Shown: positions 14,505-37,858 of the stretch, one piece after another
How positions within the stretch are numbered: position 1 is the first letter of the stretch
How the letters are laid out: every line of letters starts with the position of its first letter
DNA from: Candidatus Auribacterota bacterium
Lineage (GTDB): Bacteria > Auribacterota > UBA6266
Direction of reading: 5' to 3'
Length of the DNA: 37,858 bases
NCBI GenBank assembly: GCA_016933315.1
Contig: JAFGBE010000130.1
Coordinates: 1-37,858 of the forward strand
Notes under the pieces: generated by a model
Seen by the model: only the letters and a program-made list of their open reading frames with translations
Databases searched by the model: none
Told to the model about the DNA's origin: nothing
Translations under genes and position numbers: made by a program

Positions 14505-16019
14505 ATGGCTAACTTTGCGTTCTGTAATAAATGCCGCGAAACCGTTCCGGCCGAACATGTCGAAAGGGACGGCAAGATATTCCTCAGTAAAAATTGCCCG
14601 AAATGCGGTATTACGGAGACTCTCATCTCCAATAACGCTGAAGCGTATAAAAACAAGCGCGATTTTATGGGGGCTGTTGAATATGAAGGATGTAACCTTG
14701 ACTGCCTTAAATGCGAGCACAAGGAACCCGACATTGTTTTTATCGAATTGACCAACAGATGTAACATGAATTGCCCTATCTGTATTACCAATGTCCCTTC
14801 CATGGGTTTTGAATTTGAGCCGGATATGGAGTATTTCAGGCTTATATTCGAAGACCTTTCGAAGATGAAAAAGAAGCCGTCAGTCCAGCTTTTTGGCGGG
14901 GAACCCACGGTAAGAGAAGACCTTTTTGATATTATCAGGCTTGCGAAATCATACGGCCTTTCGGTCCGGGTTGTCACCAACGGCTTGAAGCTTGCTGACA
15001 AGAAATACTGCGATGATTTAATGGAAGAAGGTGTTTCCGTCCTTATATCGTTTGACGGGTTTGACAGGAAACTTTATGAGATTTTCAGGGGTATGCCGAA
15101 AGCCCTTGACCTGAAGCTCCAGGCTCTGGAAAACCTGAAAAACAGAAAAAAAGGCAAAGTTATTCTGATGACAGTTGCCTCGAAGGAGCAGGACATAGGG
15201 GAACTCAGGCGGCTTTTTGAATTCTGCCTGGAGAATAAGCATGTTGCCCGCGGGATGTTTATAATGCCGCTTGCCCATATGTGGTCTCCTGACCGGCTTG
15301 ATTATAACCCGGAGAGAACGACTCCGGAAGATGTGGAAGAGCTGGTGGATAAGGTTGTTGGCGGAGGTGTTGAATTTATTCCCCTCGGCTCGCTGGACAC
15401 CGGAGTCTTCAGCAAGATACTTAAACTGAAAGAGATGCCGTTTTTAGGTGTGCATCCGAACTGCGAGAGCATTACTCTTCTTGTGTCGGACGGGAAAAAG
15501 TTTTTGCCCTTGGGCAAATTTCTCAGGAAAGGCTTTGCCGGACTTATTGTTGATTTAAGAAGAACGGGCACTAAACTGTCTGTCGGGGAGAGAATCTCTT
15601 TTTTGACCCGTATTCGGGCATATCTCTCTGTTTTCAGGGTTGTCGTAACGAATTTCAACTTCGGGGCTGCCGTCGGTAAAAAAGGTATATCTGCGTTCCT
15701 GAAGTGGATGAAGATATTCTTTAAAGTTATTACCGGAGAGAAACTGAAGGATGTCATCCGCCGCGAAACAATTATGAAAGGGGCTTTGCAGATAATAGTG
15801 CTTCCTTTCGAAGATTACGATACTACCGAGGCCGTCCGGCTCAAAATGTGCGTTTCCTGTTTTGTTTATCCGGATTCAGGGAAAAATATAAAGAGAGTGC
15901 CTGTATGCGCCTGGGAACGGCATAAAAAAGTGATAATGAAAGAAGTCGCGGAAATATACAATAAGCCGGGTTTCAACAAAGGGTTAAAAAGGTCCGGAAA
16001 TGTGGCAGAAAAAGTTTAA
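14505..16019 (+). CDS. radical SAM protein, MJ0619/COG1964-type (Tes/GDGT-MAS-like), paralog 1
   Basis: 504 aa. N-terminal 4-Cys knuckle CNKC...(20 aa)...CPKC. An extra CX3CX2C (CNLDCLKC). The radical SAM CX3CX2C in IELTNRCNMNCPIC. GGEPTV SAM motif. C-terminal CVSC...C. Confidence 0.65.
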   Translation: MANFAFCNKCRETVPAEHVERDGKIFLSKNCPKCGITETLISNNAEAYKNKRDFMGAVEYEGCNLDCLKCEHKEPDIVFIELTNRCNMNCPICITNVPSMGFEFEPDMEYFRLIFEDLSKMKKKPSVQLFGGEPTVREDLFDIIRLAKSYGLSVRVVTNGLKLADKKYCDDLMEEGVSVLISFDGFDRKLYEIFRGMPKALDLKLQALENLKNRKKGKVILMTVASKEQDIGELRRLFEFCLENKHVARGMFIMPLAHMWSPDRLDYNPERTTPEDVEELVDKVVGGGVEFIPLGSLDTGVFSKILKLKEMPFLGVHPNCESITLLVSDGKKFLPLGKFLRKGFAGLIVDLRRTGTKLSVGERISFLTRIRAYLSVFRVVVTNFNFGAAVGKKGISAFLKWMKIFFKVITGEKLKDVIRRETIMKGALQIIVLPFEDYDTTEAVRLKMCVSCFVYPDSGKNIKRVPVCAWERHKKVIMKEVAEIYNKPGFNKGLKRSGNVAEKV

Positions 16020-17520
16020 AAGCATATGTCCCGTATGCGACAGGCCTCTTGAAGCTTTTTTTTATGAGGAAGCCGGCAAAATCTATATAAAGAAGGACTG
16101 CCCCGAGCACGGAAAAATCATAGACCTTGCTTCTTCGGATAAAGATATTTTCATAGGCAAGATGTCTCTCGCCCATGAAGACTATTCCCGGAACTGCAGC
16201 ATAGAAAGATGCAATGTCGGGATATTCGCCTGCAAGGATCACTTCGCCAGGAAAGCCCCTATTACCTTTATTGAAGTCACGCCGAGATGCAATATGCAGT
16301 GCCCTATCTGCTATATAGACGCCAGCACAAGAGGCAGCGATGTGCCGCTTGAAGACATAAAAAAAATGCTGGATGAAGTGCGGAAGAACGATCCCGATAC
16401 GCATCTTGTGCTTATAGGCGGGGAACCCACCATTCATAAAGATTTTTTCGGCATCCTCGATGCTGTCAGGCAGGCCGGGTTGATAAAAAGGTGTTACCTT
16501 GCCACTAACGGCATAACAATGTCCGATGAAAATTTTTGCAGGAAGGTCTACGACGCGGGACTGCGCTGGTTCTATCTTGCTTTTGACGGTGTGGACAAGG
16601 ATATATGCAAGCGTATAAGGGGCAGCTATCGTTCCTATGATGCGGCTAGAAAGACAATAGAAAACCTCAGGAAATTCAAGCGGGCGAGAATCGTGCTGTC
16701 TGTTACCGTAGTAAAAGGCCTTAACGAATCGCAGTTGCCGAAGGTTGTTGATTTCGCTCTTGAGAACACTGACGTTGTAAAACGCATTTCAATATCTGTA
16801 GAAATCTTTTGCGGCAGGCAGACGCTTATACCCGATGTCATAGACAAGAGGATTACACCGGAATGTATCGAGAAGATATTGACCGGCAGCCTCGGCCTGC
16901 AGTCAGCTACTATGGCGCTGGCCCTCGTTGGAGTTGCAATGAGGCCGCTGAAGATAGCCGGGCTTCTGCCGGAAAAGTTGTGGACCTACACCATGCCCCA
17001 TCCTATGTGCGGAAGCATAGGGCTAATAGGCAAAAAGGCGGATGGCCGGCGTTTCTCTATAATTGATTCGCTTGTCAGAAATCCCGGCAAAAATCTTTAC
17101 AGGCACGGCCTGAGGATTGAAAAACTGGCCCACAGGATGGAGAAAGCAAAAAGCAGGCTCTCAAAAAACATATTCGGCAGAATTCTGTGGAAGATGCTTG
17201 TCTTTTCTTTTTTTATTCCTGTCTATTTTATAATGCTGGCTGCTTTTATCAGGCCTTTGTTTATTCTCGATAGCATTAAATCTTTTTTCCTGTCGGTTAT
17301 CACAGGGAAGAAGATGAAGGACTGTTTATTAGGAAGAAAAAGAATGGAGATACATTACCTTGTATGCTCCGATAAATATAATTTTATCTGGGAAAAGATG
17401 CCTTATTGCGCGACACATCACTACAGGATAGACCCCAAAAGCAAAAAAGTCATAAAAATGTGCGGTTGTTATGTTTTGCCTTTCAGAAGCTACACCGAGT
17501 CCTGCAACACAATGGGATAG
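16000..17520 (+). CDS. radical SAM protein, MJ0619/COG1964-type (Tes/GDGT-MAS-like), paralog 2
   Basis: 506 aa, and the ATG overlaps paralog 1 by 20 nt. CPVC...KKDCPEHGK knuckle, IEVTPRCNMQCPIC, GGEPTI. It is clearly colinear with paralog 1 through the TIM-barrel region. Hydrophobic segment ILWKMLVFSFFIPVYFIMLAAFIRPLFIL. C-terminal C...CGC. Confidence 0.65.
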   Translation: MWQKKFKSICPVCDRPLEAFFYEEAGKIYIKKDCPEHGKIIDLASSDKDIFIGKMSLAHEDYSRNCSIERCNVGIFACKDHFARKAPITFIEVTPRCNMQCPICYIDASTRGSDVPLEDIKKMLDEVRKNDPDTHLVLIGGEPTIHKDFFGILDAVRQAGLIKRCYLATNGITMSDENFCRKVYDAGLRWFYLAFDGVDKDICKRIRGSYRSYDAARKTIENLRKFKRARIVLSVTVVKGLNESQLPKVVDFALENTDVVKRISISVEIFCGRQTLIPDVIDKRITPECIEKILTGSLGLQSATMALALVGVAMRPLKIAGLLPEKLWTYTMPHPMCGSIGLIGKKADGRRFSIIDSLVRNPGKNLYRHGLRIEKLAHRMEKAKSRLSKNIFGRILWKMLVFSFFIPVYFIMLAAFIRPLFILDSIKSFFLSVITGKKMKDCLLGRKRMEIHYLVCSDKYNFIWEKMPYCATHHYRIDPKSKKVIKMCGCYVLPFRSYTESCNTMG

Positions 17521-32948: not shown

Positions 32949-33350
32949 ATGAGAGAGCTTGTTAAAGAACAGATTGTTGAAACTACCGCAGAAAAGGTTT
33001 CTTTCGGTGTTGAAACAATTTTGGATCTTTATGATTGTAATCTTCAGGTCATGAGATCCGAGGCTAAGCTGAGAGAATATGTCGACAAGTTGTGTAAGCT
33101 TTTGAACATGGAGAAGTATGGTGAATGTCTGACGCCCTATTTTGGCCTGAATAACGAGCACACAGCGGGATATTCACTTCTTCAGTTTATAGAAACCAGC
33201 TCGATTACGGGGCATTTTTCTGAGAATACCGGAACATCCTACATAAACATATTTTCCTGCGGCGCGTATGATCCGGAAAAAGCCGCGGAGTTTACAAGGA
33301 AGTTTTTCGGCGCAAAGAAGGTGATTAAGAGGATTATCGAAAGAAGATAG
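32949..33350 (+). CDS. AdoMetDC-fold pyruvoyl-type decarboxylase homolog (SpeH-like, divergent)
   Basis: 133 aa. Colinear with class 1 AdoMetDC: LDLYDC, YSLLQFIETSSITGHFSEN (compare VVVISESHLTIHTWPE), INIFSCG. Substrate (AdoMet vs Arg/Orn) is not assignable by eye. Confidence 0.65.
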   Translation: MRELVKEQIVETTAEKVSFGVETILDLYDCNLQVMRSEAKLREYVDKLCKLLNMEKYGECLTPYFGLNNEHTAGYSLLQFIETSSITGHFSENTGTSYINIFSCGAYDPEKAAEFTRKFFGAKKVIKRIIERR

Positions 33351-33357
33351 CTCTTAT

Positions 33358-33401
33358 CCCCCCGCGGACAGCATTCTGCAAGGCTGCGGGGGGATTTTTT
33401 T
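33358..33401 (+). terminator. rho-independent terminator
   Basis: CCCCCCGC-(20-nt loop)-GCGGGGGG followed by A-TTTTTTT, immediately after the 32949-33350 stop. Confidence 0.75.
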
Positions 33402-33492
33402 CGCCCTGTTAATGGGCGTCCTTTCACAATACATACCGCATTAATGCCATTTTAACAAAGGTGAACATTCGTTATTGGTTATCAATGTAGAG

Positions 33493-33575
33493 TTAGGTCT
33501 TTTAAGGTATTTTACAGTTTACCATTGACAAACTATGTTCAATAAGGTATTATTAGGTCTTAGTAAGGTGTTTAT
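33493..33575 (+). promoter_or_regulatory. sigma70-type promoter flanked by and overlapping a 22-nt direct repeat
   Basis: TTGACA (33525-33530)-N17-TATTAT (33548-33553). Direct repeats TTAGGTCTTTTAAGGTATTTTA (33493-33514) and TTAGGTCTTAGTAAGGTGTTTA (33553-33574). The second repeat begins at the last base of the -10 hexamer and covers the predicted transcription start. Confidence 0.5.
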
Positions 33576-33607
33576 TGTATTTTAATGTTAAGATGCAGGG
33601 AGTTGTT

Positions 33608-33925
33608 ATGGGTGAAGGCAGAGAAAAAGAGTTGATGACTGAAAAAGAGGTCAGGGAGCTTTTGAGGGTTTCCCGAACTACATTATGGAAGCTCAGGAAA
33701 AACGAAAAGTTCCCTTTTTCAAAGGTCGGAAGGCAGTACAGGTATTCCGGGAAAGAGATACTTGAATGGATGAAAGATAAAAAAGGTAAAAAAATTGAAA
33801 GGGGCGGCTCAGGCCACTCCGATAATATAGATAGGAAAGAAGAAAATAAACAACAGGAGATATCGAAAGAATCCTTGCAAGGTGGGGATAAATCTGTAAC
33901 CAAGGAAGTCGAAGGAAAAAAATGA
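33608..33925 (+). CDS. excisionase/MerR-superfamily HTH (HTH_17-like) DNA-binding protein with Lys/Glu-rich tail
   Basis: LMTEKEVRELLRVSRTTLWKLRKNEKFPFSKVGRQYRYSGKEILEWM is the helix-turn-helix_17 pattern. Start chosen at the ATG 33608 (AGGGAG 5 nt upstream). The stop overlaps the kamA ATG (ATGA). Confidence 0.65.
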   Translation: MGEGREKELMTEKEVRELLRVSRTTLWKLRKNEKFPFSKVGRQYRYSGKEILEWMKDKKGKKIERGGSGHSDNIDRKEENKQQEISKESLQGGDKSVTKEVEGKK

Positions 33926-35049
33926 AAAAAGATGGTGCGGCGAAATCTACATCGTCCGACGGTTCCAGTTCTTATAAGGTAAAGAAATCCAGGTGGTATG
34001 ATTGGAAATGGCAGCTTAAGAACAGAATTACAACGGTAGAAGAGATTTCGAAGTATGTAGCTTTAACTCAGGAGGAAAAACAGGGGCTTGATTTAAAAGA
34101 GAGGCTGGTTTTCGGGGTAACGCCTTATTTCCTGAGTCTTATAGATCCTTTCAGCCCGAACTGTCCTATAAGGAAGCAATGCGTTCCGACAGCCAGTGAG
34201 GGGGTTGCAACCGAATTTGATTATGAAGATCCGTGTGCGGAAGAAAAGGATTGCCCTGTCCCCGGGCTGGTTCACAGGTACCCGGACAGGGTATTGCTTC
34301 TTGCCACAGATGAATGCGCGTCCTATTGCAGGCATTGTACCCGCAAGAGGCTTGCGGGAAGCTCCAAGCATGTCCTTACCGCGAAAATGATGGACAAGAT
34401 AGTGAAATACCTGTCCGATAACCCGAAGATAAGGGATGTGGTAGTCTCCGGCGGGGATCCTTTGACTCTTGCTGAAGATAAGCTGGAGATGATTCTTTCA
34501 AGCCTGAAAAAGATAAGAAGCGTTCAGGTGATAAGGATAGGGACCAGGGTACCGATATTTCTTCCTATGAGGATTGATGAGGCGCTTGTTTCAATGTTGA
34601 AGAAATATCATCCTGTGTGGATGAGCATACACATAAATCACCCCCGCGAAGTGACCCCCGATGTTGAAAAAGCTTTGAATATGCTTGCGGATTCGGGGAT
34701 AGTGCTGGGCAGCCAGACGGTGCTCCTTAAAGGGATAAATGACAAGCCGGAAATTATGAAAGAGCTGTTCATCAGGGCTATGAAGAACAGGGTGAGACCT
34801 TATTATATTTATCAGTGTGACCCCGCAAGAGGAACTGCACACTTCCGAACCTCAGTCAAGACAGGTGTTGAAATAATTGAAAATCTGCGCGGTTTTATCA
34901 GCGGTTACGCGGTCCCTACGTATGTTATCGATGCCCCGGGCGGCGGAGGCAAAATACCTGTCTCTCCCAATTATGTGGTTGAGCATAAAGGTAAAAAGTG
35001 GACACTTAAAAATTATCGCAACAACAGATATGAATATATAGAGCCTTAA
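33922..35049 (+). CDS. kamA: lysine 2,3-aminomutase family radical SAM/PLP enzyme (short, EpmB-length form)
   Basis: 375 aa. Colinear with Clostridium KamA: WKWQLKNRI, TPYFLSLID, PGLVHRYPDRVLLLATDECASYCRHCTRKR (CX3CX2C), RPYYIYQCD, VIDAPGGGGKIPV (PLP Lys). It lacks the C-terminal Zn/oligomerisation extension of clostridial KamA. Confidence 0.85.
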   Translation: MKKDGAAKSTSSDGSSSYKVKKSRWYDWKWQLKNRITTVEEISKYVALTQEEKQGLDLKERLVFGVTPYFLSLIDPFSPNCPIRKQCVPTASEGVATEFDYEDPCAEEKDCPVPGLVHRYPDRVLLLATDECASYCRHCTRKRLAGSSKHVLTAKMMDKIVKYLSDNPKIRDVVVSGGDPLTLAEDKLEMILSSLKKIRSVQVIRIGTRVPIFLPMRIDEALVSMLKKYHPVWMSIHINHPREVTPDVEKALNMLADSGIVLGSQTVLLKGINDKPEIMKELFIRAMKNRVRPYYIYQCDPARGTAHFRTSVKTGVEIIENLRGFISGYAVPTYVIDAPGGGGKIPVSPNYVVEHKGKKWTLKNYRNNRYEYIEP

Positions 35050-35099
35050 CCATTCCGGTCTGGCGGGAAAACAGAAAATAAAAAGATGTGTGTACTGGT

Positions 35100-36122
35100 A
35101 TGAAAATAGGAATTACATATAACCTGAAAACGGATTTTAAGGGTCTCGCGCTGGCGGCGGAAGACGCGCTGGAGGAATTTGACAGCGAGAAGACTGTAGA
35201 CGCGATAGCTTCCGCCATTGTGAAAATAGGGCATGAGGCGGTCAAGCTCGGCGGCGGCGAGCAGGTTATCGGCAAGATAAAAAACGAGGAACCTTCGCTG
35301 GTTTTTAATATCGCGGAAGGTGTCAACGGAAGGGCGCGTGAAGCGCAGATCCCGGCCTTGCTTGAGTTGCTTAAAATACCGTATACACATTCCGATCCCC
35401 TTACTCTCGCGCTGACGCTTGATAAATCCATGACCAAGCATGTTGTCAAATCATGCGGTGTGAACACGCCTGATTTTCTGGTCGTTTCGGATACCGCGGA
35501 GCTTAAGGGAGACAATCTTCCCGGATTTCCCCTGATAGTCAAGCCCGCGTGGGAAGGTTCAAGCAAGGGGATAAGAACAAATTCAAAGGTGAACAATTTT
35601 GATGAGTTGGAAACTCAGGTCGGATGGGTGTTTAAAAATTATCCGGGCCAGCCTGTTTTGATAGAGCAGTTTATAAGGGGGCGGGAGATTACCGTGGGCG
35701 TTATCGGGAACAATCCTCCGCGCATCCTTGGGATGATGGAAATAGGTTTTAAGGAAAACACCAAAAAAGATTTTATTTATTCCCTGGAAGTGAAGAGGGA
35801 TTACGAGAAACTTGTAAAATATACGTGCCCCCCGGGGCTTGATGACAAAGTGGCCGCGAAAGTTGAAAAGATGGCTCTGTCCGCTTACGACTGCCTTCAT
35901 TGTAAAGACATTGCCAGGATGGATTTCAGGATTGATGAGAAAGCGAACGCTTATTTTATTGAAATCAACCCGCTTCCCGGCCTTTCTCCCGACTACAGCG
36001 ACCTGATTATAATGTCGAAAAAGCTCGGGATAGAATACGAGGATATAATCAGGGGGATAATCGAAAACGCCGTTAAGAGATATAATATAGGAGAAAAAAT
36101 TGAGAGCTGCACTTCTGTTTAA
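35100..36122 (+). CDS. ATP-grasp ligase, D-Ala-D-Ala-ligase-like but non-canonical (paralog 1)
   Basis: Start set at the ATG 35100 (MKIGITYNLK). ATP-grasp motifs LIVKPAWEGSSKGI, ARMDFRIDEKANAYFIEINPLPGL. It lacks the Ddl N-terminal GGxSxEHEVS signature. Confidence 0.75.
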   Translation: MKIGITYNLKTDFKGLALAAEDALEEFDSEKTVDAIASAIVKIGHEAVKLGGGEQVIGKIKNEEPSLVFNIAEGVNGRAREAQIPALLELLKIPYTHSDPLTLALTLDKSMTKHVVKSCGVNTPDFLVVSDTAELKGDNLPGFPLIVKPAWEGSSKGIRTNSKVNNFDELETQVGWVFKNYPGQPVLIEQFIRGREITVGVIGNNPPRILGMMEIGFKENTKKDFIYSLEVKRDYEKLVKYTCPPGLDDKVAAKVEKMALSAYDCLHCKDIARMDFRIDEKANAYFIEINPLPGLSPDYSDLIIMSKKLGIEYEDIIRGIIENAVKRYNIGEKIESCTSV

Positions 36123-37188
36123 CGAACCCGACCTGATTGCCGATCTTGAGCCGGGAATGACTGATGAGTACATACACAACCATATCAACGCGGTTGAACA
36201 TTCCCTGGGCAAAATAGGCTGCGAGGTTTTAAGGATTGATATAAACAACGATATTCAGGAAATGGTCGCCAATATCCATAAAAGCCGGGCGGATGTGATT
36301 TTTAACCTGTGCGAGAGCATCTTCGGCAGGCCGGAATTCGAGATGAATATAGTGACCCTCCTGGAGCTTTTAAAGGTCCCTTATACGGGAGCGCCTCCCC
36401 TGGCGCTGGGGCTCTGCCTGAACAAATATAATTACAGGTTTTTTCTGAAAGATATGGGGATAAAATGTCCCCGGGCGGTGGAAATCAGGAACCCGTCGCA
36501 CTTCGACAGCGTGTCGCAATTAAAGTATCCGGTTATCGTGAAGCCTCTCAGTGAAGACGGAAGCACAGGCATCTCTGAGCAGAATATTTTTGAATCGCCC
36601 CGGGAAGCTAAAAACAAGCTTGGCGCCCTGCTTCAGCTTTACTCTGACGGGTTGATCGCGGAAGAGTATATTGCCGGCAGGGAGTTTAATTGTTTTTTAA
36701 TCAATACAAAAGAGGGAACCAAAATATTCCCGATATCGGAGATAGAATTCCGGTATCCCGACAACAGGAAATACAATATCATTTCGTATGACGCAAAATG
36801 GAATATCGAAAGCGTGGAATATAAGTCCACGGTGCATATATGTCCGGCGGATATCACGAAAGCGCAGACCGGGAAAATATTCAAAGCCTGTTCGGTGATA
36901 TTTAATACTATCATTAAGAAGGGTTATGCGCGCGTGGATTTCCGTATGGACGCTAAAAACAATCTCTATGTTATAGATGTCAACCCCAACCCGGACATAA
37001 GTCCTGATGCCGGGGCCATAAAACAGATCAGGGCCGAAGGCTGGACATACACCAATTTTGTCGAAGCTATGATAGAAGACGCGATTGAATATATGAAAAA
37101 ACCTGTTTTCCTGTTCGGCACCGAACACAGGAAAAAAACGCCTAAAAGAGGCAAAGACTACAGGTTTGCGGCTTCGGCGGCCTGCTAA
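36100..37188 (+). CDS. ATP-grasp ligase, D-Ala-D-Ala-ligase-like but non-canonical (paralog 2)
   Basis: TTG start at 36100 (AGGAG 6 nt upstream) overlaps paralog 1 by 23 nt. VIVKPLSEDGSTGI, ARVDFRMDAKNNLYVIDVNPNPDISP. It shares the N-domain pattern ...IFNLCE..G...E..I..LLELLKVPYTG with paralog 1. Confidence 0.72.
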   Translation: MRAALLFNEPDLIADLEPGMTDEYIHNHINAVEHSLGKIGCEVLRIDINNDIQEMVANIHKSRADVIFNLCESIFGRPEFEMNIVTLLELLKVPYTGAPPLALGLCLNKYNYRFFLKDMGIKCPRAVEIRNPSHFDSVSQLKYPVIVKPLSEDGSTGISEQNIFESPREAKNKLGALLQLYSDGLIAEEYIAGREFNCFLINTKEGTKIFPISEIEFRYPDNRKYNIISYDAKWNIESVEYKSTVHICPADITKAQTGKIFKACSVIFNTIIKKGYARVDFRMDAKNNLYVIDVNPNPDISPDAGAIKQIRAEGWTYTNFVEAMIEDAIEYMKKPVFLFGTEHRKKTPKRGKDYRFAASAAC

Positions 37189-37694
37189 CCTTCAAGCAGA
37201 AACGAGGATAATTTTCTTCTTCCGGGGTATCTTGGTTTTTCACCCGGGTAGCCCACCGCTATTACCGCCGCGAGCTCCAGGCCCTTTTGCCTGTTTATCT
37301 TTTTCTGAAGCTGTTTTTTCCTGTTCAGTATTTCTCCCAGCCAGACGGCTCCCATTTTTTCCGAATGGATATAGAGCAGCATATTCTCGATGCACGCGCC
37401 GGCGGACATTATGTCCTTGTCCCTGTCATAGATTTTCCGTTCATCGAGGTATACCAGTATAAGCGCGGGCGCCTCACATATGATTTTTGAGTATCGGCTG
37501 AGAGTGAACCCGGAGATGGTTTTTTTTAATCCGGCTTCGGTTACTGTCTGGAATTTCCATGGCTGATTGTTCAGCCCGCTGGGAGCGTTAATCCCGGCTT
37601 CAATGATTTTAAGCAGGATTTTCCGGCTCACGTTTCTGTTTTTAAAGCGCCGGATGCTTCTCCTTGTTTTTATAAGATGTTTGAGATTTTCCAT
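37185..37694 (-). CDS. nitroreductase family protein
   Basis: 169 aa. N-terminal LIKTRRSIRRFKNRNVS...IIEAGINAPSGLNNQPWKF is the classical nitroreductase signature. Its stop codon overlaps the convergent ATP-grasp stop (CTAA). Confidence 0.85.
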   Translation of the reverse strand: MENLKHLIKTRRSIRRFKNRNVSRKILLKIIEAGINAPSGLNNQPWKFQTVTEAGLKKTISGFTLSRYSKIICEAPALILVYLDERKIYDRDKDIMSAGACIENMLLYIHSEKMGAVWLGEILNRKKQLQKKINRQKGLELAAVIAVGYPGEKPRYPGRRKLSSFLLEG

Positions 37695-37729
37695 ATTTAA
37701 ATGATATTATATTAAAAAAGGAGAAAATT

Positions 37730-37858
37730 ATGAAATTGATATATTTGGCCGCTGCGGGGCTTTTTTTATTTGCCGGTTGCAGCCGGCCTGGTGTTTCGGC
37801 CGGGAATGTCGTGAAAATAGAAGGGGCAAAAGGAAGCTGGCGGTTGACGGTAAACGGC
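37730..37858 (+). CDS. lipoprotein, 5' fragment (continues beyond the window)
   Basis: AAGGAG RBS 7 nt upstream of the ATG. MKLIYLAAAGLFLFAGCSRP carries a lipobox (LFAGC). The frame is open to the window end. Confidence 0.6.
   Translation, partial: MKLIYLAAAGLFLFAGCSRPGVSAGNVVKIEGAKGSWRLTVNG

What the first reader, a model, noticed from the sequence alone, without database searches (positions are those of the whole stretch)
33608..37188. HTH - lysine 2,3-aminomutase - two non-canonical Ddl-like ATP-grasp ligases in one translationally coupled operon: unknown beta-lysine conjugate pathway
Seen in sequence:
- Four same-strand genes are tightly linked. There is an ATGA overlap at 33922-33925 and a 23-nt overlap at 36100-36122. 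The only gap is 50 nt.
- A TTGACA-N17-TATTAT promoter lies upstream and a convergent gene closes the unit.
- The KamA homolog keeps the CX3CX2C motif and the PLP lysine (GGGGK).
- It also keeps both acidic residues in the YQCD and VxDAPGGGGK contexts. In Clostridium subterminale LAM these bind the lysine epsilon-ammonium, and they are replaced in glutamate 2,3-aminomutase (established knowledge, recalled). Beta-lysine is therefore the likely product.
- The protein is short, as EpmB is, but no EpmA or EF-P gene is nearby.
- Instead, two paralogous ATP-grasp enzymes follow. Both have Ddl-type C-terminal halves (GSSKGI/GSTGI, DFRxD...NxxPG) but lack the Ddl N-terminal GGxSxEHEVS motif.

Inference: the ligases probably amide-link beta-lysine, either to itself, to another amino acid or amine, or to a protein tail. 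The product could be a compatible solute, a peptide or a polymer that I cannot match to a known pathway. Known routes use a GNAT (N-epsilon-acetyl-beta-lysine), EpmA (EF-P) or NRPS-type enzymes (streptothricin). The Lys/Glu-rich tail of the upstream HTH protein (ending ...KEVEGKK) is a speculative acceptor.
Basis: partly seen in the sequence, partly recalled or inferred. Interest (0 to 1): 0.75.

Follow-up and report, generated by a model that had tools for sequence, protein, structure and literature searches.

The report
Widespread uncharacterised beta-lysine ligase gene cassette
A lysine 2,3-aminomutase gene sits next to, and in some organisms is fused to, two unusual ATP-dependent amide ligases in hundreds of bacterial and some archaeal species, which points to a still unidentified small beta-lysine-containing compound made without ribosomes or NRPS enzymes.

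Summary
The window is a Candidatus Aureabacteria MAG contig. It carries HTH (33608-33925), a KamA-family aminomutase (33922-35049) and two Ddl-like ATP-grasp genes: AG1 (35100-36122) and AG2 (36100-37188). The overlaps, the 50-nt gap and the promoter are as described.

- **KamA.** It aligns with C. subterminale lysine 2,3-aminomutase at E=2e-132. It keeps the Fe-S cysteines, Arg134, Asp293, Asp330 and the PLP lysine. It lacks the zinc site and the C-terminal tail.
- **AG1 and AG2.** Both keep the ATP-grasp catalytic residues. Both score below every Ddl cutoff, and their D-Ala pocket residues are replaced; His63 is Glu in every sequence examined.
- **Conserved linkage.** Among the best 80 loci, 45 have KamA within 6 kb. 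These span more than 15 lineages, including Bathyarchaeia.
- **Fusions and neighbours.** KamA and AG1 are fused in both orders. GNAT, peptidase (S66, S58, M28) and MFS genes recur nearby.
- **HTH.** It is lineage-specific and probably a regulator. The idea that its tail is an acceptor is unsupported.

No PDB entry, NCBIfam model or searched paper describes this cassette. The most likely function is synthesis of a small beta-lysine (pseudo)peptide. The product itself remains unknown.

The parts
33525..33553 (+). Sigma-70-type promoter TTGACA-N17-TATTAT of the operon
   Evidence: Best promoter-like match in 33300-37858, 11 of 12 positions. Conserved in the relative L002. A direct repeat TTAGGTCTT at 33493-33501 and 33553-33561 brackets it and could be an operator; this was not tested.
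33608..33925 (+). Small HTH_17 (excisionase/MerR-like) DNA-binding protein, 105 aa, with a Lys/Glu-rich tail. Probably a lineage-specific regulator.
   Evidence: Pfam HTH_17 at 2.2e-14. Gene callers find the same 105-aa gene, with the same ATGA overlap, in L002. Among 80 related loci it is absent except in one Elusimicrobia locus, where the tail is not conserved.
33922..35049 (+). Short, zinc-site-less KamA-family radical SAM/PLP aminomutase; predicted lysine 2,3-aminomutase that makes beta-lysine
   Evidence: Matches 2A5H at E=2e-132. Keeps Cys125/129/132, Arg134, Asp293, Asp330 and Lys337. Exceeds the TIGR00238 cutoff (321 against 199 bits). Scores 469 against 525 for the AblA equivalog. Ends at LAM residue 368 and lacks Cys268 and the C-terminal Cys triad.
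35100..36122 (+). AG1: Ddl-like ATP-grasp amide ligase of an uncharacterised family. It is the ligase most tightly coupled to KamA.
   Evidence: Pfam Dala_Dala_lig_C at 4.8e-37. Best NCBIfam Ddl score is 189 against a cutoff of 243. Catalytic residues are kept and D-Ala pocket residues changed. The AF2 model (pLDDT 86) best matches Ddl structures at TM about 0.75 and 24-27% identity. Fused to KamA in P0207, P0217, P0244 and P0231.
36100..37188 (+). AG2: a second, divergent Ddl-like ATP-grasp amide ligase, 28% identical to AG1, translationally coupled through a 23-nt overlap
   Evidence: Pfam Dala_Dala_lig_C at 1.2e-23. Best Ddl score is 130 against 243. A TAGGAG Shine-Dalgarno sequence lies 6 nt before TTG 36100. 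AG2-type genes follow KamA-AG1 in many phyla.
37185..37694 (-). Convergent nitroreductase-family gene that closes the unit. It marks the boundary and is not part of the pathway.
   Evidence: Pfam Nitroreductase at 2.5e-23. Conserved only in the close relatives L002 and L003.

Best explanation
This is one copy of a widespread, uncharacterised biosynthetic cassette. Its conserved parts are a short KamA-type lysine 2,3-aminomutase, a dedicated Ddl-like ATP-grasp ligase (AG1) and a second ATP-grasp ligase (AG2 here).

Proposed steps:
1. KamA converts free L-lysine to beta-lysine by radical SAM/PLP chemistry. This is inferred from fully conserved substrate-binding residues.
2. AG1 uses ATP to form an acyl-phosphate and makes an amide bond involving beta-lysine. 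This is inferred from the gene fusion, the tight linkage and the acidic replacements in the substrate pocket.
3. AG2 adds a further unit to the AG1 product. The evidence is weak: AG2 lacks a conserved Glu15-type ammonium anchor and has smaller residues at the Ser150, Ser281 and Leu282 positions.

The product would be a small beta-lysine-containing di- or tripeptide-like metabolite. In lineages with an adjacent GNAT it may be N-acetylated, and dedicated peptidases may turn it over. Its role is probably a cytoplasmic solute or nitrogen-rich reserve, or an exported metabolite.

In this organism the HTH protein is a local transcriptional regulator expressed from the same promoter.
For: KamA substrate.
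- LAM-type Cys125/129/132, Arg134, Asp293, Asp330 and Lys337 are invariant in 37 of 37 cassette KamAs. These residues bind the carboxylate, the epsilon-ammonium and PLP (recalled from the 2A5H literature). KamA therefore probably acts on free lysine, before any ligation.

Ligase competence.
- AG1 and AG2 keep Ddl Lys97, Lys144, Glu180, Glu187, Lys215, Arg255, Asp257, Glu270 and Asn272.
- His63 is Glu in all sequences examined.
- Tyr216 is Arg, Glu or His in AG1 and Trp in AG2.
- Leu282 is Asp in most AG1 sequences.

Linkage.
- 592 genome hits were confirmed.
- KamA lies within 600 bp of AG1 in 38 of the best 80 loci and within 6 kb in 45.
- That is 45 of the 54 loci that are not of the myxobacterial fused or tandem type.
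- Lineages include Dehalococcoidia, Planctomycetia, Omnitrophota, Margulisbacteria, Bacillota, Thermodesulfobacteriota, Lentisphaerae and Bathyarchaeia.

Fusions.
- KamA::AG1 and AG1::KamA fusion proteins exist.
- One fusion locus reads fusion-AG2-GNAT with overlapping genes.

Small-molecule context.
- GNAT is the commonest accessory family.
- Peptidases S66, S58 and M28 recur.
- MFS transporters recur: annotated, and inferred from the sequence of the Bacillota cluster c25.
- A genuinely archaeal contig carries the cassette. This excludes murein-only or EF-P-only roles.

Prior description.
- Nothing closer than Ddl exists in the PDB.
- No specific NCBIfam model matches.
- Searches combining beta-lysine, beta-lysyl or aminomutase with ATP-grasp found no description of this cassette. 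Two further searches, one with D-alanine-D-alanine ligase and one with elongation factor P, also found none.
Against: - No product, substrate or activity has been observed; every chemical step is inferred from sequence.
- KamA scores below the AblA equivalog cutoff (469 against 525). Another basic amino acid, such as ornithine or arginine, cannot be excluded.
- In Myxococcota and Bdellovibrionota the two ligases are tandem or fused with no KamA within 10 kb. The ligase pair may therefore not strictly need beta-lysine, or KamA may lie elsewhere in those genomes.
- No AG1 residue cleanly separates KamA-linked from unlinked loci.
- The second ligase varies between lineages: AG2, an AG1 paralogue, or a RimK-like protein. 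The product may differ between lineages.
- The adjacent GNATs are generic and are not AblB equivalogs.
- No osmolarity-related riboswitch or other regulatory clue was found.
Confidence: 0.6

Rival explanations
1. Protein or peptide tagging. The ATP-grasp enzymes attach beta-lysine, or further residues, to a protein side chain or C-terminus. Analogues are RimK on ribosomal protein S6, LysX on LysW, tubulin-tyrosine ligase, and EpmA on EF-P. Possible targets include the Lys-rich tail of the HTH protein.
For: - ATP-grasp enzymes of other families do modify proteins (established knowledge, recalled).
- AG1 gives a weak TTL-family Pfam hit at 1.6e-5.
- The HTH ends in ...EVEGKK.
- In Thermodesulfobacteriota a small lipoprotein encoded just upstream of KamA also ends in ...KK.
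- Omnitrophota loci carry EF-G-like and YchF genes next to the cassette.
Against: - No candidate acceptor gene is conserved across cassettes.
- The HTH is lineage-specific and its tail is absent from the Elusimicrobia homologue.
- The lipoprotein has a signal peptide and lipobox, so it is exported.
- The EF-G and YchF neighbours are confined to one clade.
- No efp or epmA gene is in the window.
- The cassette occurs in archaea, which have aIF5A rather than EF-P.
- Ddl is the closest fold and sequence relative, and it is a small-molecule ligase.
- The accessory GNAT, peptidase and MFS genes fit a small molecule better.
Confidence: 0.13
2. Polymer synthesis. The two ligases alternately build a cyanophycin-like or poly-beta-lysine-type polyamide that stores nitrogen, and the associated peptidases remobilise it.
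For: - The minimal core is two distinct ligases, as with the two ligase domains of cyanophycin synthetase.
- Dedicated peptidases recur beside the ligases.
- The AG1 profile weakly matches the cyanophycin synthetase ATP-grasp domain, at about E=1e-6.
- About a third of the best 150 AG1-family cluster representatives are double ATP-grasp fusions (my count).
Against: - Neither protein has a primer-binding or oligomerisation domain.
- Both are the size of Ddl and are far closer to Ddl than to CphA.
- Known poly-beta-lysine and streptothricin-type chains are made by NRPS-like enzymes (recalled; compare PMC10522769).
- GNAT capping and MFS transporters suit a discrete small molecule better.
Confidence: 0.1
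3. The ATP-grasp genes are housekeeping or alternative D-Ala-D-X ligases for cell-wall synthesis, and their position beside KamA has no functional meaning.
For: The best sequence and structure matches are Ddl and VanA enzymes. Some sources annotate homologues as D-alanine--D-alanine ligase.
Against: - Both score below all Ddl cutoffs.
- The Ddl N-terminal Pfam domain is not detected.
- His63, Tyr216, Ser281 and Leu282 are replaced.
- Linkage to KamA holds across more than 15 lineages and includes fusions.
- The cassette occurs in Bathyarchaeia, which lack murein.
- It also occurs in Myxococcus, which presumably has a normal ddl gene (not checked here).
Confidence: 0.03

Closest known systems
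AblA/AblB pathway for N-epsilon-acetyl-beta-lysine (methanogens; KamA/YodP in Bacillus)
   Same: A KamA-family lysine 2,3-aminomutase supplies beta-lysine to an adjacent amide-forming enzyme. Many cassette copies also carry a GNAT directly downstream or upstream. The archaeal version reads GNAT-KamA-AG1.
   Different: Two ATP-grasp ligases are the constant partners, not a GNAT. This window has no GNAT in the operon. The GNATs found elsewhere are generic RimI-like proteins, not AblB equivalogs. KamA is a short form without the zinc site and scores below the AblA cutoff.
D-alanine--D-alanine ligase (Ddl/VanA family)
   Same: Same fold. The sequence match covers most of the protein. ATP-, Mg- and acyl-phosphate-handling residues are kept: Lys97, Lys144, Glu180, Glu187, Lys215, Arg255, Asp257, Glu270 and Asn272.
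   Different: Identity is 24-27%. Both score below all family cutoffs. His63 becomes Glu, Tyr216 becomes Arg/Glu/His or Trp, and Ser281/Leu282 are changed. The N-terminal GGxSxE motif is remodelled to YNLK...EEFD. The genes are linked to KamA rather than to the cell-division and murein gene cluster, and occur in archaea.
PylB/PylC of pyrrolysine biosynthesis
   Same: Same logic (recalled). A radical SAM enzyme rearranges lysine into a non-proteinogenic diamino acid. An ATP-grasp ligase then joins its carboxylate to an amine.
   Different: PylB is not a KamA-family or PLP enzyme. PylC is not among the best 60 PDB matches of the AG1 profile, whereas Ddl scores 2e-39. There is no PylD, and a second ligase is present.
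EpmB/EpmA beta-lysylation of EF-P
   Same: A short KamA-family enzyme without the clostridial C-terminal extension makes beta-lysine for an ATP-dependent amide ligation.
   Different: The EpmB model scores only 230 against a cutoff of 369. The ligases have the ATP-grasp fold, not the class II aminoacyl-tRNA-synthetase fold. No efp or epmA gene is nearby, and the cassette occurs in archaea.
Negamycin cluster of Kitasatospora, and other actinomycete beta-lysine natural products (streptothricin, viomycin)
   Same: The negamycin genes combine beta-lysine formation with an ATP-grasp superfamily member. This is stated in bioRxiv 10.1101/2025.05.27.656397; see also 10.1101/2025.07.31.667836.
   Different: Those are lineage-restricted secondary-metabolite clusters with N-N bond-forming heme enzymes, hydroxylases and methyltransferases, or with NRPS modules. 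This cassette has three or four genes, lacks such tailoring genes, and is spread across many phyla of mostly anaerobic, uncultured organisms.

Membership tests
KamA family radical SAM/PLP 2,3-aminomutases (TIGR00238) | CX3CX2C [4Fe-4S]/SAM motif | tested here: met
   CASYCRHC aligns with Cys125/129/132 of 2A5H. Invariant in 37 of 37 cassette KamAs.
KamA family radical SAM/PLP 2,3-aminomutases (TIGR00238) | PLP-binding lysine in the GGGGK motif, and a family HMM score above cutoff | tested here: met
   The Lys337 equivalent is present. TIGR00238 scores 320.7 bits against a cutoff of 199.2. Pfam LAM_C scores 1.1e-18.
Lysine 2,3-aminomutase proper (AblA/KamA equivalog TIGR03820) | Equivalog HMM score above the curated cutoff | tested here: not met
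   469.4 bits against a cutoff of 525.4. The match covers model positions 3-361 of 417, so the missing C-terminus may account for part of the deficit.
Lysine 2,3-aminomutase proper (AblA/KamA equivalog TIGR03820) | Lysine-binding residues Arg134 (carboxylate) and Asp293 and Asp330 (epsilon-ammonium) | tested here: met
   All three are present in the window protein and in 37 of 37 cassette KamAs. Their roles are recalled from the 2A5H literature.
Lysine 2,3-aminomutase proper (AblA/KamA equivalog TIGR03820) | Inter-subunit zinc site (Cys268 plus C-terminal Cys375/377/380) of the clostridial enzyme | tested here: not met
   Position 268 is Lys here and is never Cys in the 37 homologues. The protein ends at LAM residue 368.
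Lysine 2,3-aminomutase proper (AblA/KamA equivalog TIGR03820) | Catalytic conversion of L-lysine to beta-lysine | not testable with these tools
   Needs an anaerobic enzyme assay.
EpmB (EF-P beta-lysylation, TIGR03821) | Equivalog HMM score above cutoff, and genomic association with epmA or efp | tested here: not met
   229.8 bits against a cutoff of 369.3. No EF-P or class II synthetase-like gene among the window ORFs scanned.
Glutamate 2,3-aminomutase (TIGR04368) | HMM score above cutoff, and replacement of Asp293 and Asp330 by Lys and Asn | tested here: not met
   417 bits against a cutoff of 650. Both Asp residues are retained.
ATP-grasp superfamily | ATP-grasp fold with conserved Lys, Glu, Asp and Asn residues for ATP and Mg binding | tested here: met
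   Equivalents of Lys97, Lys144, Glu180, Glu187, Lys215, Arg255, Asp257, Glu270 and Asn272 are conserved in AG1 and AG2. The AF2 model of AG1 superposes on Ddl at TM about 0.75.
D-alanine--D-alanine ligase (Ddl) | Family HMM scores above NCBIfam cutoffs, and presence of the Ddl N-terminal domain | tested here: not met
   Best scores are 189.2 (AG1) and 130.3 (AG2) against a cutoff of 243. Pfam reports only Dala_Dala_lig_C, with no N-terminal Ddl domain.
D-alanine--D-alanine ligase (Ddl) | D-Ala pocket residues His63, Ser150, Tyr216, Ser281 and Leu282 (E. coli DdlB numbering) | tested here: not met
   His63 is Glu in all. Tyr216 is Arg/Glu/His (AG1) or Trp (AG2). Ser150 is Ala/Gly in AG2. Leu282 is Asp (AG1) or Gly (AG2). 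The DdlB sequence was recalled from memory and checked by its length and residue numbering.
D-alanine--D-alanine ligase (Ddl) | Being the genome's cell-wall D-Ala-D-Ala supplier (no other ddl gene) | not testable with these tools
   Only a 37.9-kb contig of this genome is available. Indirect evidence against: the cassette occurs on an archaeal contig.
AblA/AblB N-epsilon-acetyl-beta-lysine system | An AblB-type GNAT encoded next to the aminomutase | tested here: not met
   No GNAT lies in the window operon. GNATs next to other cassette copies hit only generic RimI-like models.
PylB/PylC-type lysine mutase plus ATP-grasp pair | Sequence membership of the ligase in the PylC family | tested here: inconclusive
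   No PylC chain appears among the best 60 PDB hits of the AG1 profile, while Ddl chains dominate. PylC was not compared directly.

The most novel reading that the evidence does not exclude
The cassette makes a previously unrecognised primary-type metabolite: a beta-lysine-containing di- or tripeptide-like compound, N-acetylated in some lineages. It is assembled by two Ddl-derived ATP-grasp ligases independently of ribosomes and NRPS. It is present in hundreds of mostly uncultured anaerobic species across more than 15 bacterial lineages and Bathyarchaeia. AG1 would define a new beta-amino-acid ligase family descended from Ddl.
Probability: 0.5. Interest if true: 0.75.

Novelty: new variant of a known kind. 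Interest (0 to 1): 0.62.

Why it matters
Beta-lysine is currently known in only a few settings. These are an acetylated osmolyte, the EF-P modification, lysine fermentation and some actinomycete antibiotics.

The cassette couples a lysine 2,3-aminomutase to dedicated ATP-grasp ligases, and in some organisms fuses them. Relatives were confirmed at 592 places in species-representative genomes, and about 990 protein clusters at 50% identity match AG1. This implies a common metabolite that nobody has identified, mostly in candidate phyla whose physiology is inferred only from annotation.

Identifying it would have three consequences:
- It would assign function to thousands of genes now labelled 'ATP-grasp domain-containing protein' or mislabelled 'D-alanine--D-alanine ligase'.
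- It would define how the Ddl scaffold was re-tooled for cationic or beta-amino acid substrates.
- It could provide a simple enzymatic route to beta-amino-acid peptides.

The hypothesis can be tested directly with three or four genes expressed in E. coli.

Tried and rejected
- **Literature.** Nine full-text searches combined beta-lysine, beta-lysyl, aminomutase, KamA, ATP-grasp, D-alanine-D-alanine ligase, elongation factor P and Aureabacteria. None found a description of the cassette. The only partial precedent is negamycin. I could not retrieve Iyer et al. 2009 on ATP-grasp amidoligases, so I cannot exclude a passing mention there.
- **Structures.** Sequence, profile and Foldseek searches of the PDB found nothing closer than Ddl.
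- **HTH tail as acceptor.** Rejected. The HTH is not conserved with the cassette and the tail is absent from the Elusimicrobia homologue.
- **Small conserved ORF as carrier protein.** The 65-70 aa ORF upstream of KamA in Thermodesulfobacteriota is a lipoprotein with a signal peptide, so it is an unlikely substrate.
- **Specificity-determining residues.** I compared AG1 from KamA-linked and unlinked loci. No clean discriminator emerged, and the differences track phylogeny.
- **Riboswitches and other RNA elements.** None found in the window or in nine cassette loci.
- **Anti-phage defence.** Only a weak mad1-type HTH hit, with no hits for the enzymes.
- **Link to the upstream AdoMet_dc-like genes (polyamines).** Rejected as part of the unit. 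A terminator and a promoter lie between them, and the neighbourhood is conserved only in close relatives.
- **Mobile-element origin.** Base composition is unremarkable and the flanks are syntenic in relatives.

Full report
**1. What is in the window**

The window is the full 37,858-bp contig of a MAG labelled Candidatus Aureabacteria; the AG1 protein matches it at 100% identity on a contig of that length. G+C content is 41-50% throughout, with no compositional break at the locus.

- A hairpin plus T-run at 33374-33398 ends the upstream gene.
- The best sigma-70-like site of the region, TTGACA-17-TATTAT, lies at 33525-33553 and matches 11 of 12 positions.
- The HTH gene runs 33608-33925. Its TGA shares ATGA with the KamA start at 33922.
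- KamA ends at 35049. A 50-nt gap precedes AG1 at ATG 35100. This start is fixed by the conserved N-terminus MKIGITYNLK and by gene calls in relatives.
- AG2 starts at TTG 36100, 6 nt after TAGGAG, and overlaps AG1 by 23 nt.
- AG2 ends at 37188, overlapping by 4 nt the stop of a convergent nitroreductase-family gene.

A relative at about 89% protein identity has the same layout and the same flanking genes on a 1.99-Mb contig (L002).

**2. The aminomutase**

The 375-aa protein matches C. subterminale lysine 2,3-aminomutase (PDB 2A5H) at E=2e-132 over residues 12-368 of the chain. The alignment places its CASYCRHC on Cys125/129/132, YIYQCD on Asp293 and VIDAPGGGGK on Asp330 and Lys337.

NCBIfam ranks the models as follows:

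| Model | Score (bits) | Cutoff (bits) |
|---|---|---|
| AblA/LAM | 469 | 525 |
| Glutamate 2,3-aminomutase | 417 | 650 |
| Arginine 2,3-aminomutase | 378 | 600 |
| EpmB | 230 | 369 |
| KamA subfamily (TIGR00238) | 321 | 199 |

Only the generic KamA subfamily cutoff is passed.

I aligned 36 KamA genes found beside AG1 in other genomes together with the window protein and 2A5H:
- Cys125/129/132, Arg134, Asp293, Asp330 and Lys337 are invariant in 37 of 37.
- The zinc ligand Cys268 is never Cys.
- None has the C-terminal Cys triad.

These are therefore a distinct short KamA form without the zinc site, and every residue known (recalled) to hold lysine's carboxylate and epsilon-ammonium is present. 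Because the carboxylate, the alpha-amino group (through PLP) and the epsilon-ammonium all appear to be read, free L-lysine is the likely substrate. KamA should therefore act before the ligases. Ornithine or arginine cannot be formally excluded.

**3. The two ATP-grasp proteins**

Both hit only the C-terminal Ddl domain in Pfam, at 4.8e-37 and 1.2e-23. Both stay well below every NCBIfam Ddl or Van cutoff; the best scores are 189 and 130 bits against 243. They are 28% identical to each other.

In the PDB nothing is closer than Ddl:
- By single sequence, the best E-values are 1.4e-27 and 2.7e-16.
- By AG1 profile, the best is 2e-39.
- The next family, L-amino acid ligase BL00235, scores about 1e-15, and biotin carboxylases score about 1e-8.

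An AlphaFold model of AG1 (pLDDT 86, pTM 0.87) superposes best on DdlA and DdlB structures, at TM about 0.75 and 24-27% identity.

I mapped E. coli DdlB residues onto 48 AG1-type, 5 AG1-paralogue and 16 AG2-type sequences. The DdlB sequence was recalled from memory and validated by its length and by the numbering of 11 landmark residues.
- **Catalytic and ATP/Mg residues are conserved in both families:** Lys97, Lys144, Glu180, Glu187, Lys215, Arg255, Asp257, Glu270 and Asn272.
- **The D-Ala pockets are rebuilt:**
  - His63 is Glu in every sequence.
  - Tyr216 is Arg, Glu or His in AG1 and Trp in AG2.
  - Ser150 is Ala or Gly in AG2.
  - Leu282 is Asp in most AG1 sequences and Gly in AG2.
- **The N-terminal motif is remodelled:** the Ddl GGxSxEREVS motif becomes YNLK...EEFD in AG1. 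An invariant Glu sits at or next to the Glu15 position, so the ammonium anchor is probably kept. AG2 has no strictly conserved acidic residue there.

The extra acidic residues suggest cationic substrates. The smaller residues and the missing anchor in AG2 would suit a larger, N-blocked acyl donor such as the AG1 product. These last two points are inference only.

**4. Conservation of the linkage**

AG1 has thousands of homologues at about 50% identity carrying only generic names. An exhaustive scan of 1.84 billion cluster representatives gives 990 with E<=1e-30. AG2 likewise has thousands of homologues with only generic names.

In the 80 best loci:
- KamA lies within 600 bp of AG1 in 38 and within 6 kb in 45.
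- A second Ddl-like ligase lies within 1 kb in 50.
- Both KamA and a second ligase are present in 29.

The 35 loci without a nearby KamA break down as follows:
- 26 are the tandem or fused AG1'-AG1 type of Myxococcota, Bdellovibrionota and some other 'delta' lineages.
- 2 are cut by a contig end exactly where their relatives carry KamA-AG2. L011 and L015 have the same flanking genes as L012, L013 and L016.

So 45 of the 54 remaining loci have KamA.

Recurrent architectures:
- **KamA-AG1-AG2(-GNAT):** Dehalococcoidia, several 'delta' lineages, Lentisphaerae, Krumholzibacteriia and Gammaproteobacteria.
- **GNAT-KamA-AG1 with a convergent AG2 and an MFS gene:** Bathyarchaeia. The contig also encodes ribosomal protein S8e, SRP19, Gar1 and TFIIB, so it is genuinely archaeal.
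- **KamA-AG1-(RimK-like ATP-grasp):** Margulisbacteria, Planctomycetia and Omnitrophota. An S66 peptidase follows in the Margulisbacteria and Omnitrophota loci, and an MFS gene in Margulisbacteria.
- **AG1-AG1'-KamA:** Omnitrophota.
- **AG1-KamA:** Bacillota. Two of these loci have an upstream gene that looks like an MFS transporter by sequence.
- **AG1, two-component system, KamA-AG2:** Thermodesulfobacteriota.

Rosetta-stone fusions exist in both orders. P0207, P0217 and P0244 are KamA::AG1, and P0231 is AG1::KamA. The P0244 locus reads fusion-AG2-GNAT with overlapping genes.

I scanned 111 putative operon neighbours against Pfam. Only GNAT recurred broadly, in 6 of them. S58, S66, EF-G/YchF and other families were each confined to one clade. 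An M28 peptidase precedes AG1 in some Bacillota.

**5. Interpretation**

Conserved adjacency across more than 15 lineages, together with fusion, is strong evidence that KamA and AG1 act in one pathway. The aminomutase residues point to beta-lysine. The ligases are catalytically intact but are not D-Ala-D-Ala ligases.

The accessory genes are those of small-molecule metabolism: acetyltransferases, aminopeptidases or carboxypeptidases, and MFS transporters. One of the peptidases belongs to the DmpA/BapA family, which is known (recalled) for cleaving N-terminal D- or beta-amino acids. No conserved candidate acceptor protein exists. Occurrence in archaea rules out functions tied only to murein or EF-P.

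The best-supported model is therefore a short pathway: L-Lys to beta-Lys (KamA), then a beta-Lys amide (AG1), then an extended product (AG2 or an alternative second ligase). Some lineages would add N-acetylation. I put this at about 0.6.

Rival explanations:
- Protein tagging, about 0.13.
- A cyanophycin-like polymer, about 0.10.
- Plain Ddl function, about 0.03.

The remainder covers a non-lysine substrate or something not foreseen.

The physiological role is open. It could be a solute, a nitrogen store or an exported compound. No riboswitch or other regulatory clue was found.

**6. The HTH**

It is an HTH_17/excisionase-type protein. It is co-transcribed and translationally coupled here and in close relatives. 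Among the 80 loci it recurs only once, in an Elusimicrobia locus, without the Lys/Glu-rich tail. It is most simply a lineage-specific regulator. A TTAGGTCTT direct repeat brackets the promoter and could be its operator; this is untested.

**7. Comparison with known systems and novelty**

- The logic resembles AblA/AblB (aminomutase plus amide-forming enzyme) and PylB/PylC (radical SAM lysine mutase plus ATP-grasp ligase).
- Negamycin gene clusters also combine beta-lysine formation with an ATP-grasp enzyme.
- The cassette fails the membership tests for AblA equivalog, EpmB, glutamate aminomutase and Ddl (see the membership table).
- No NCBIfam model, PDB entry or paper in the searched library describes it.

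I classify it as a new variant of a known kind: an ATP-grasp-based beta-lysine conjugation pathway. It is notable mainly for its breadth and for being directly testable.

**8. Limits**

- Everything about chemistry is inferred from sequence.
- The other genes of this genome, such as a canonical ddl, could not be inspected.
- My ORF calling in high-GC loci is crude.
- The 80 loci are the best-scoring ones, not a random sample.
- The literature library lacks most subscription journals.

Noticed in passing
P0207, P0217, P0244 and P0231; L089:154-3999: KamA and AG1 occur as single fused polypeptides in both domain orders. In L089 the 784-aa fusion is followed by overlapping AG2-like and GNAT genes.
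   Followed up: partly
L035, L036, L038, L040, L044, L050, L061, L064, L066 and others: In Myxococcota and Bdellovibrionota, including cultured Myxococcus, Corallococcus and Citreicoccus, two AG1-type ligases are tandem or fused (about 680-720 aa). No KamA lies within 10 kb. A DmpA-like S58 peptidase often follows. About a third of the best 150 AG1-family representatives are such double ATP-grasp proteins (my count).
   Followed up: partly
L008:12283-12480; L090:4230-4442; L091:1074-1286; L092:4012-4209: In Thermodesulfobacteriota a conserved 65-70 aa lipoprotein is encoded between a response regulator and KamA. It has a signal peptide, a lipobox and a Pro/Ala/Glu/Lys-rich tail ending in KK. 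Its C-terminal KK echoes the window's HTH tail (...EGKK). This is probably coincidence.
   Followed up: partly
L009:11033-12016; L014:10995-12002; L029:2368-3363: In Margulisbacteria, Omnitrophota and Planctomycetia the second ligase is a different 330-aa protein. It has no Pfam hit and only weak RimK/MptN-family similarity (about 4e-6). In the Margulisbacteria and Omnitrophota loci an S66 (LD-carboxypeptidase/MccF-type) peptidase lies downstream.
   Followed up: partly
window:32406-32930 and 32949-33350: Two adjacent AdoMet_dc-like genes lie just upstream of the cassette and are separated from it by a terminator. The first has no significant Pfam hit here and only a faint AdoMet_dc hit in L002. 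This could be a paralogue pair such as SAM decarboxylase plus a derived decarboxylase.
   Followed up: no
window:14505-16019 and 16000-17520: Two tandem, overlapping radical SAM genes of about 505 aa, each with an N-terminal HMPTM-type zinc ribbon. Function not examined.
   Followed up: no
window:21900-29992 (minus strand): A same-strand, overlapping trio. A 1093-aa ORF has no Pfam hit. It is followed by an FHA-GAF-sigma54 activator and then a Ser/Thr kinase with TPR repeats. The homologous large ORFs in L002 and L003 also lack Pfam hits.
   Followed up: no
window:33493-33501 and 33553-33561: A direct repeat TTAGGTCTT, followed by a TAAGGT-like sequence, sits just upstream of the -35 hexamer and just after the -10 hexamer of the operon promoter. 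It could be an operator for the HTH protein. The downstream copy is identical in L002 and the upstream copy differs at three positions. The whole intergenic region is 90% identical, so conservation is not informative.
   Followed up: partly
window:37130-37188 (AG2 C-terminus): AG2 of this lineage has an extra basic C-terminal tail of about 30 aa (...KKPVFLFGTEHRKKTPKRGKDYRFAASAAC). More distant AG2 homologues cover only about 91-93% of the query and lack it.
   Followed up: no
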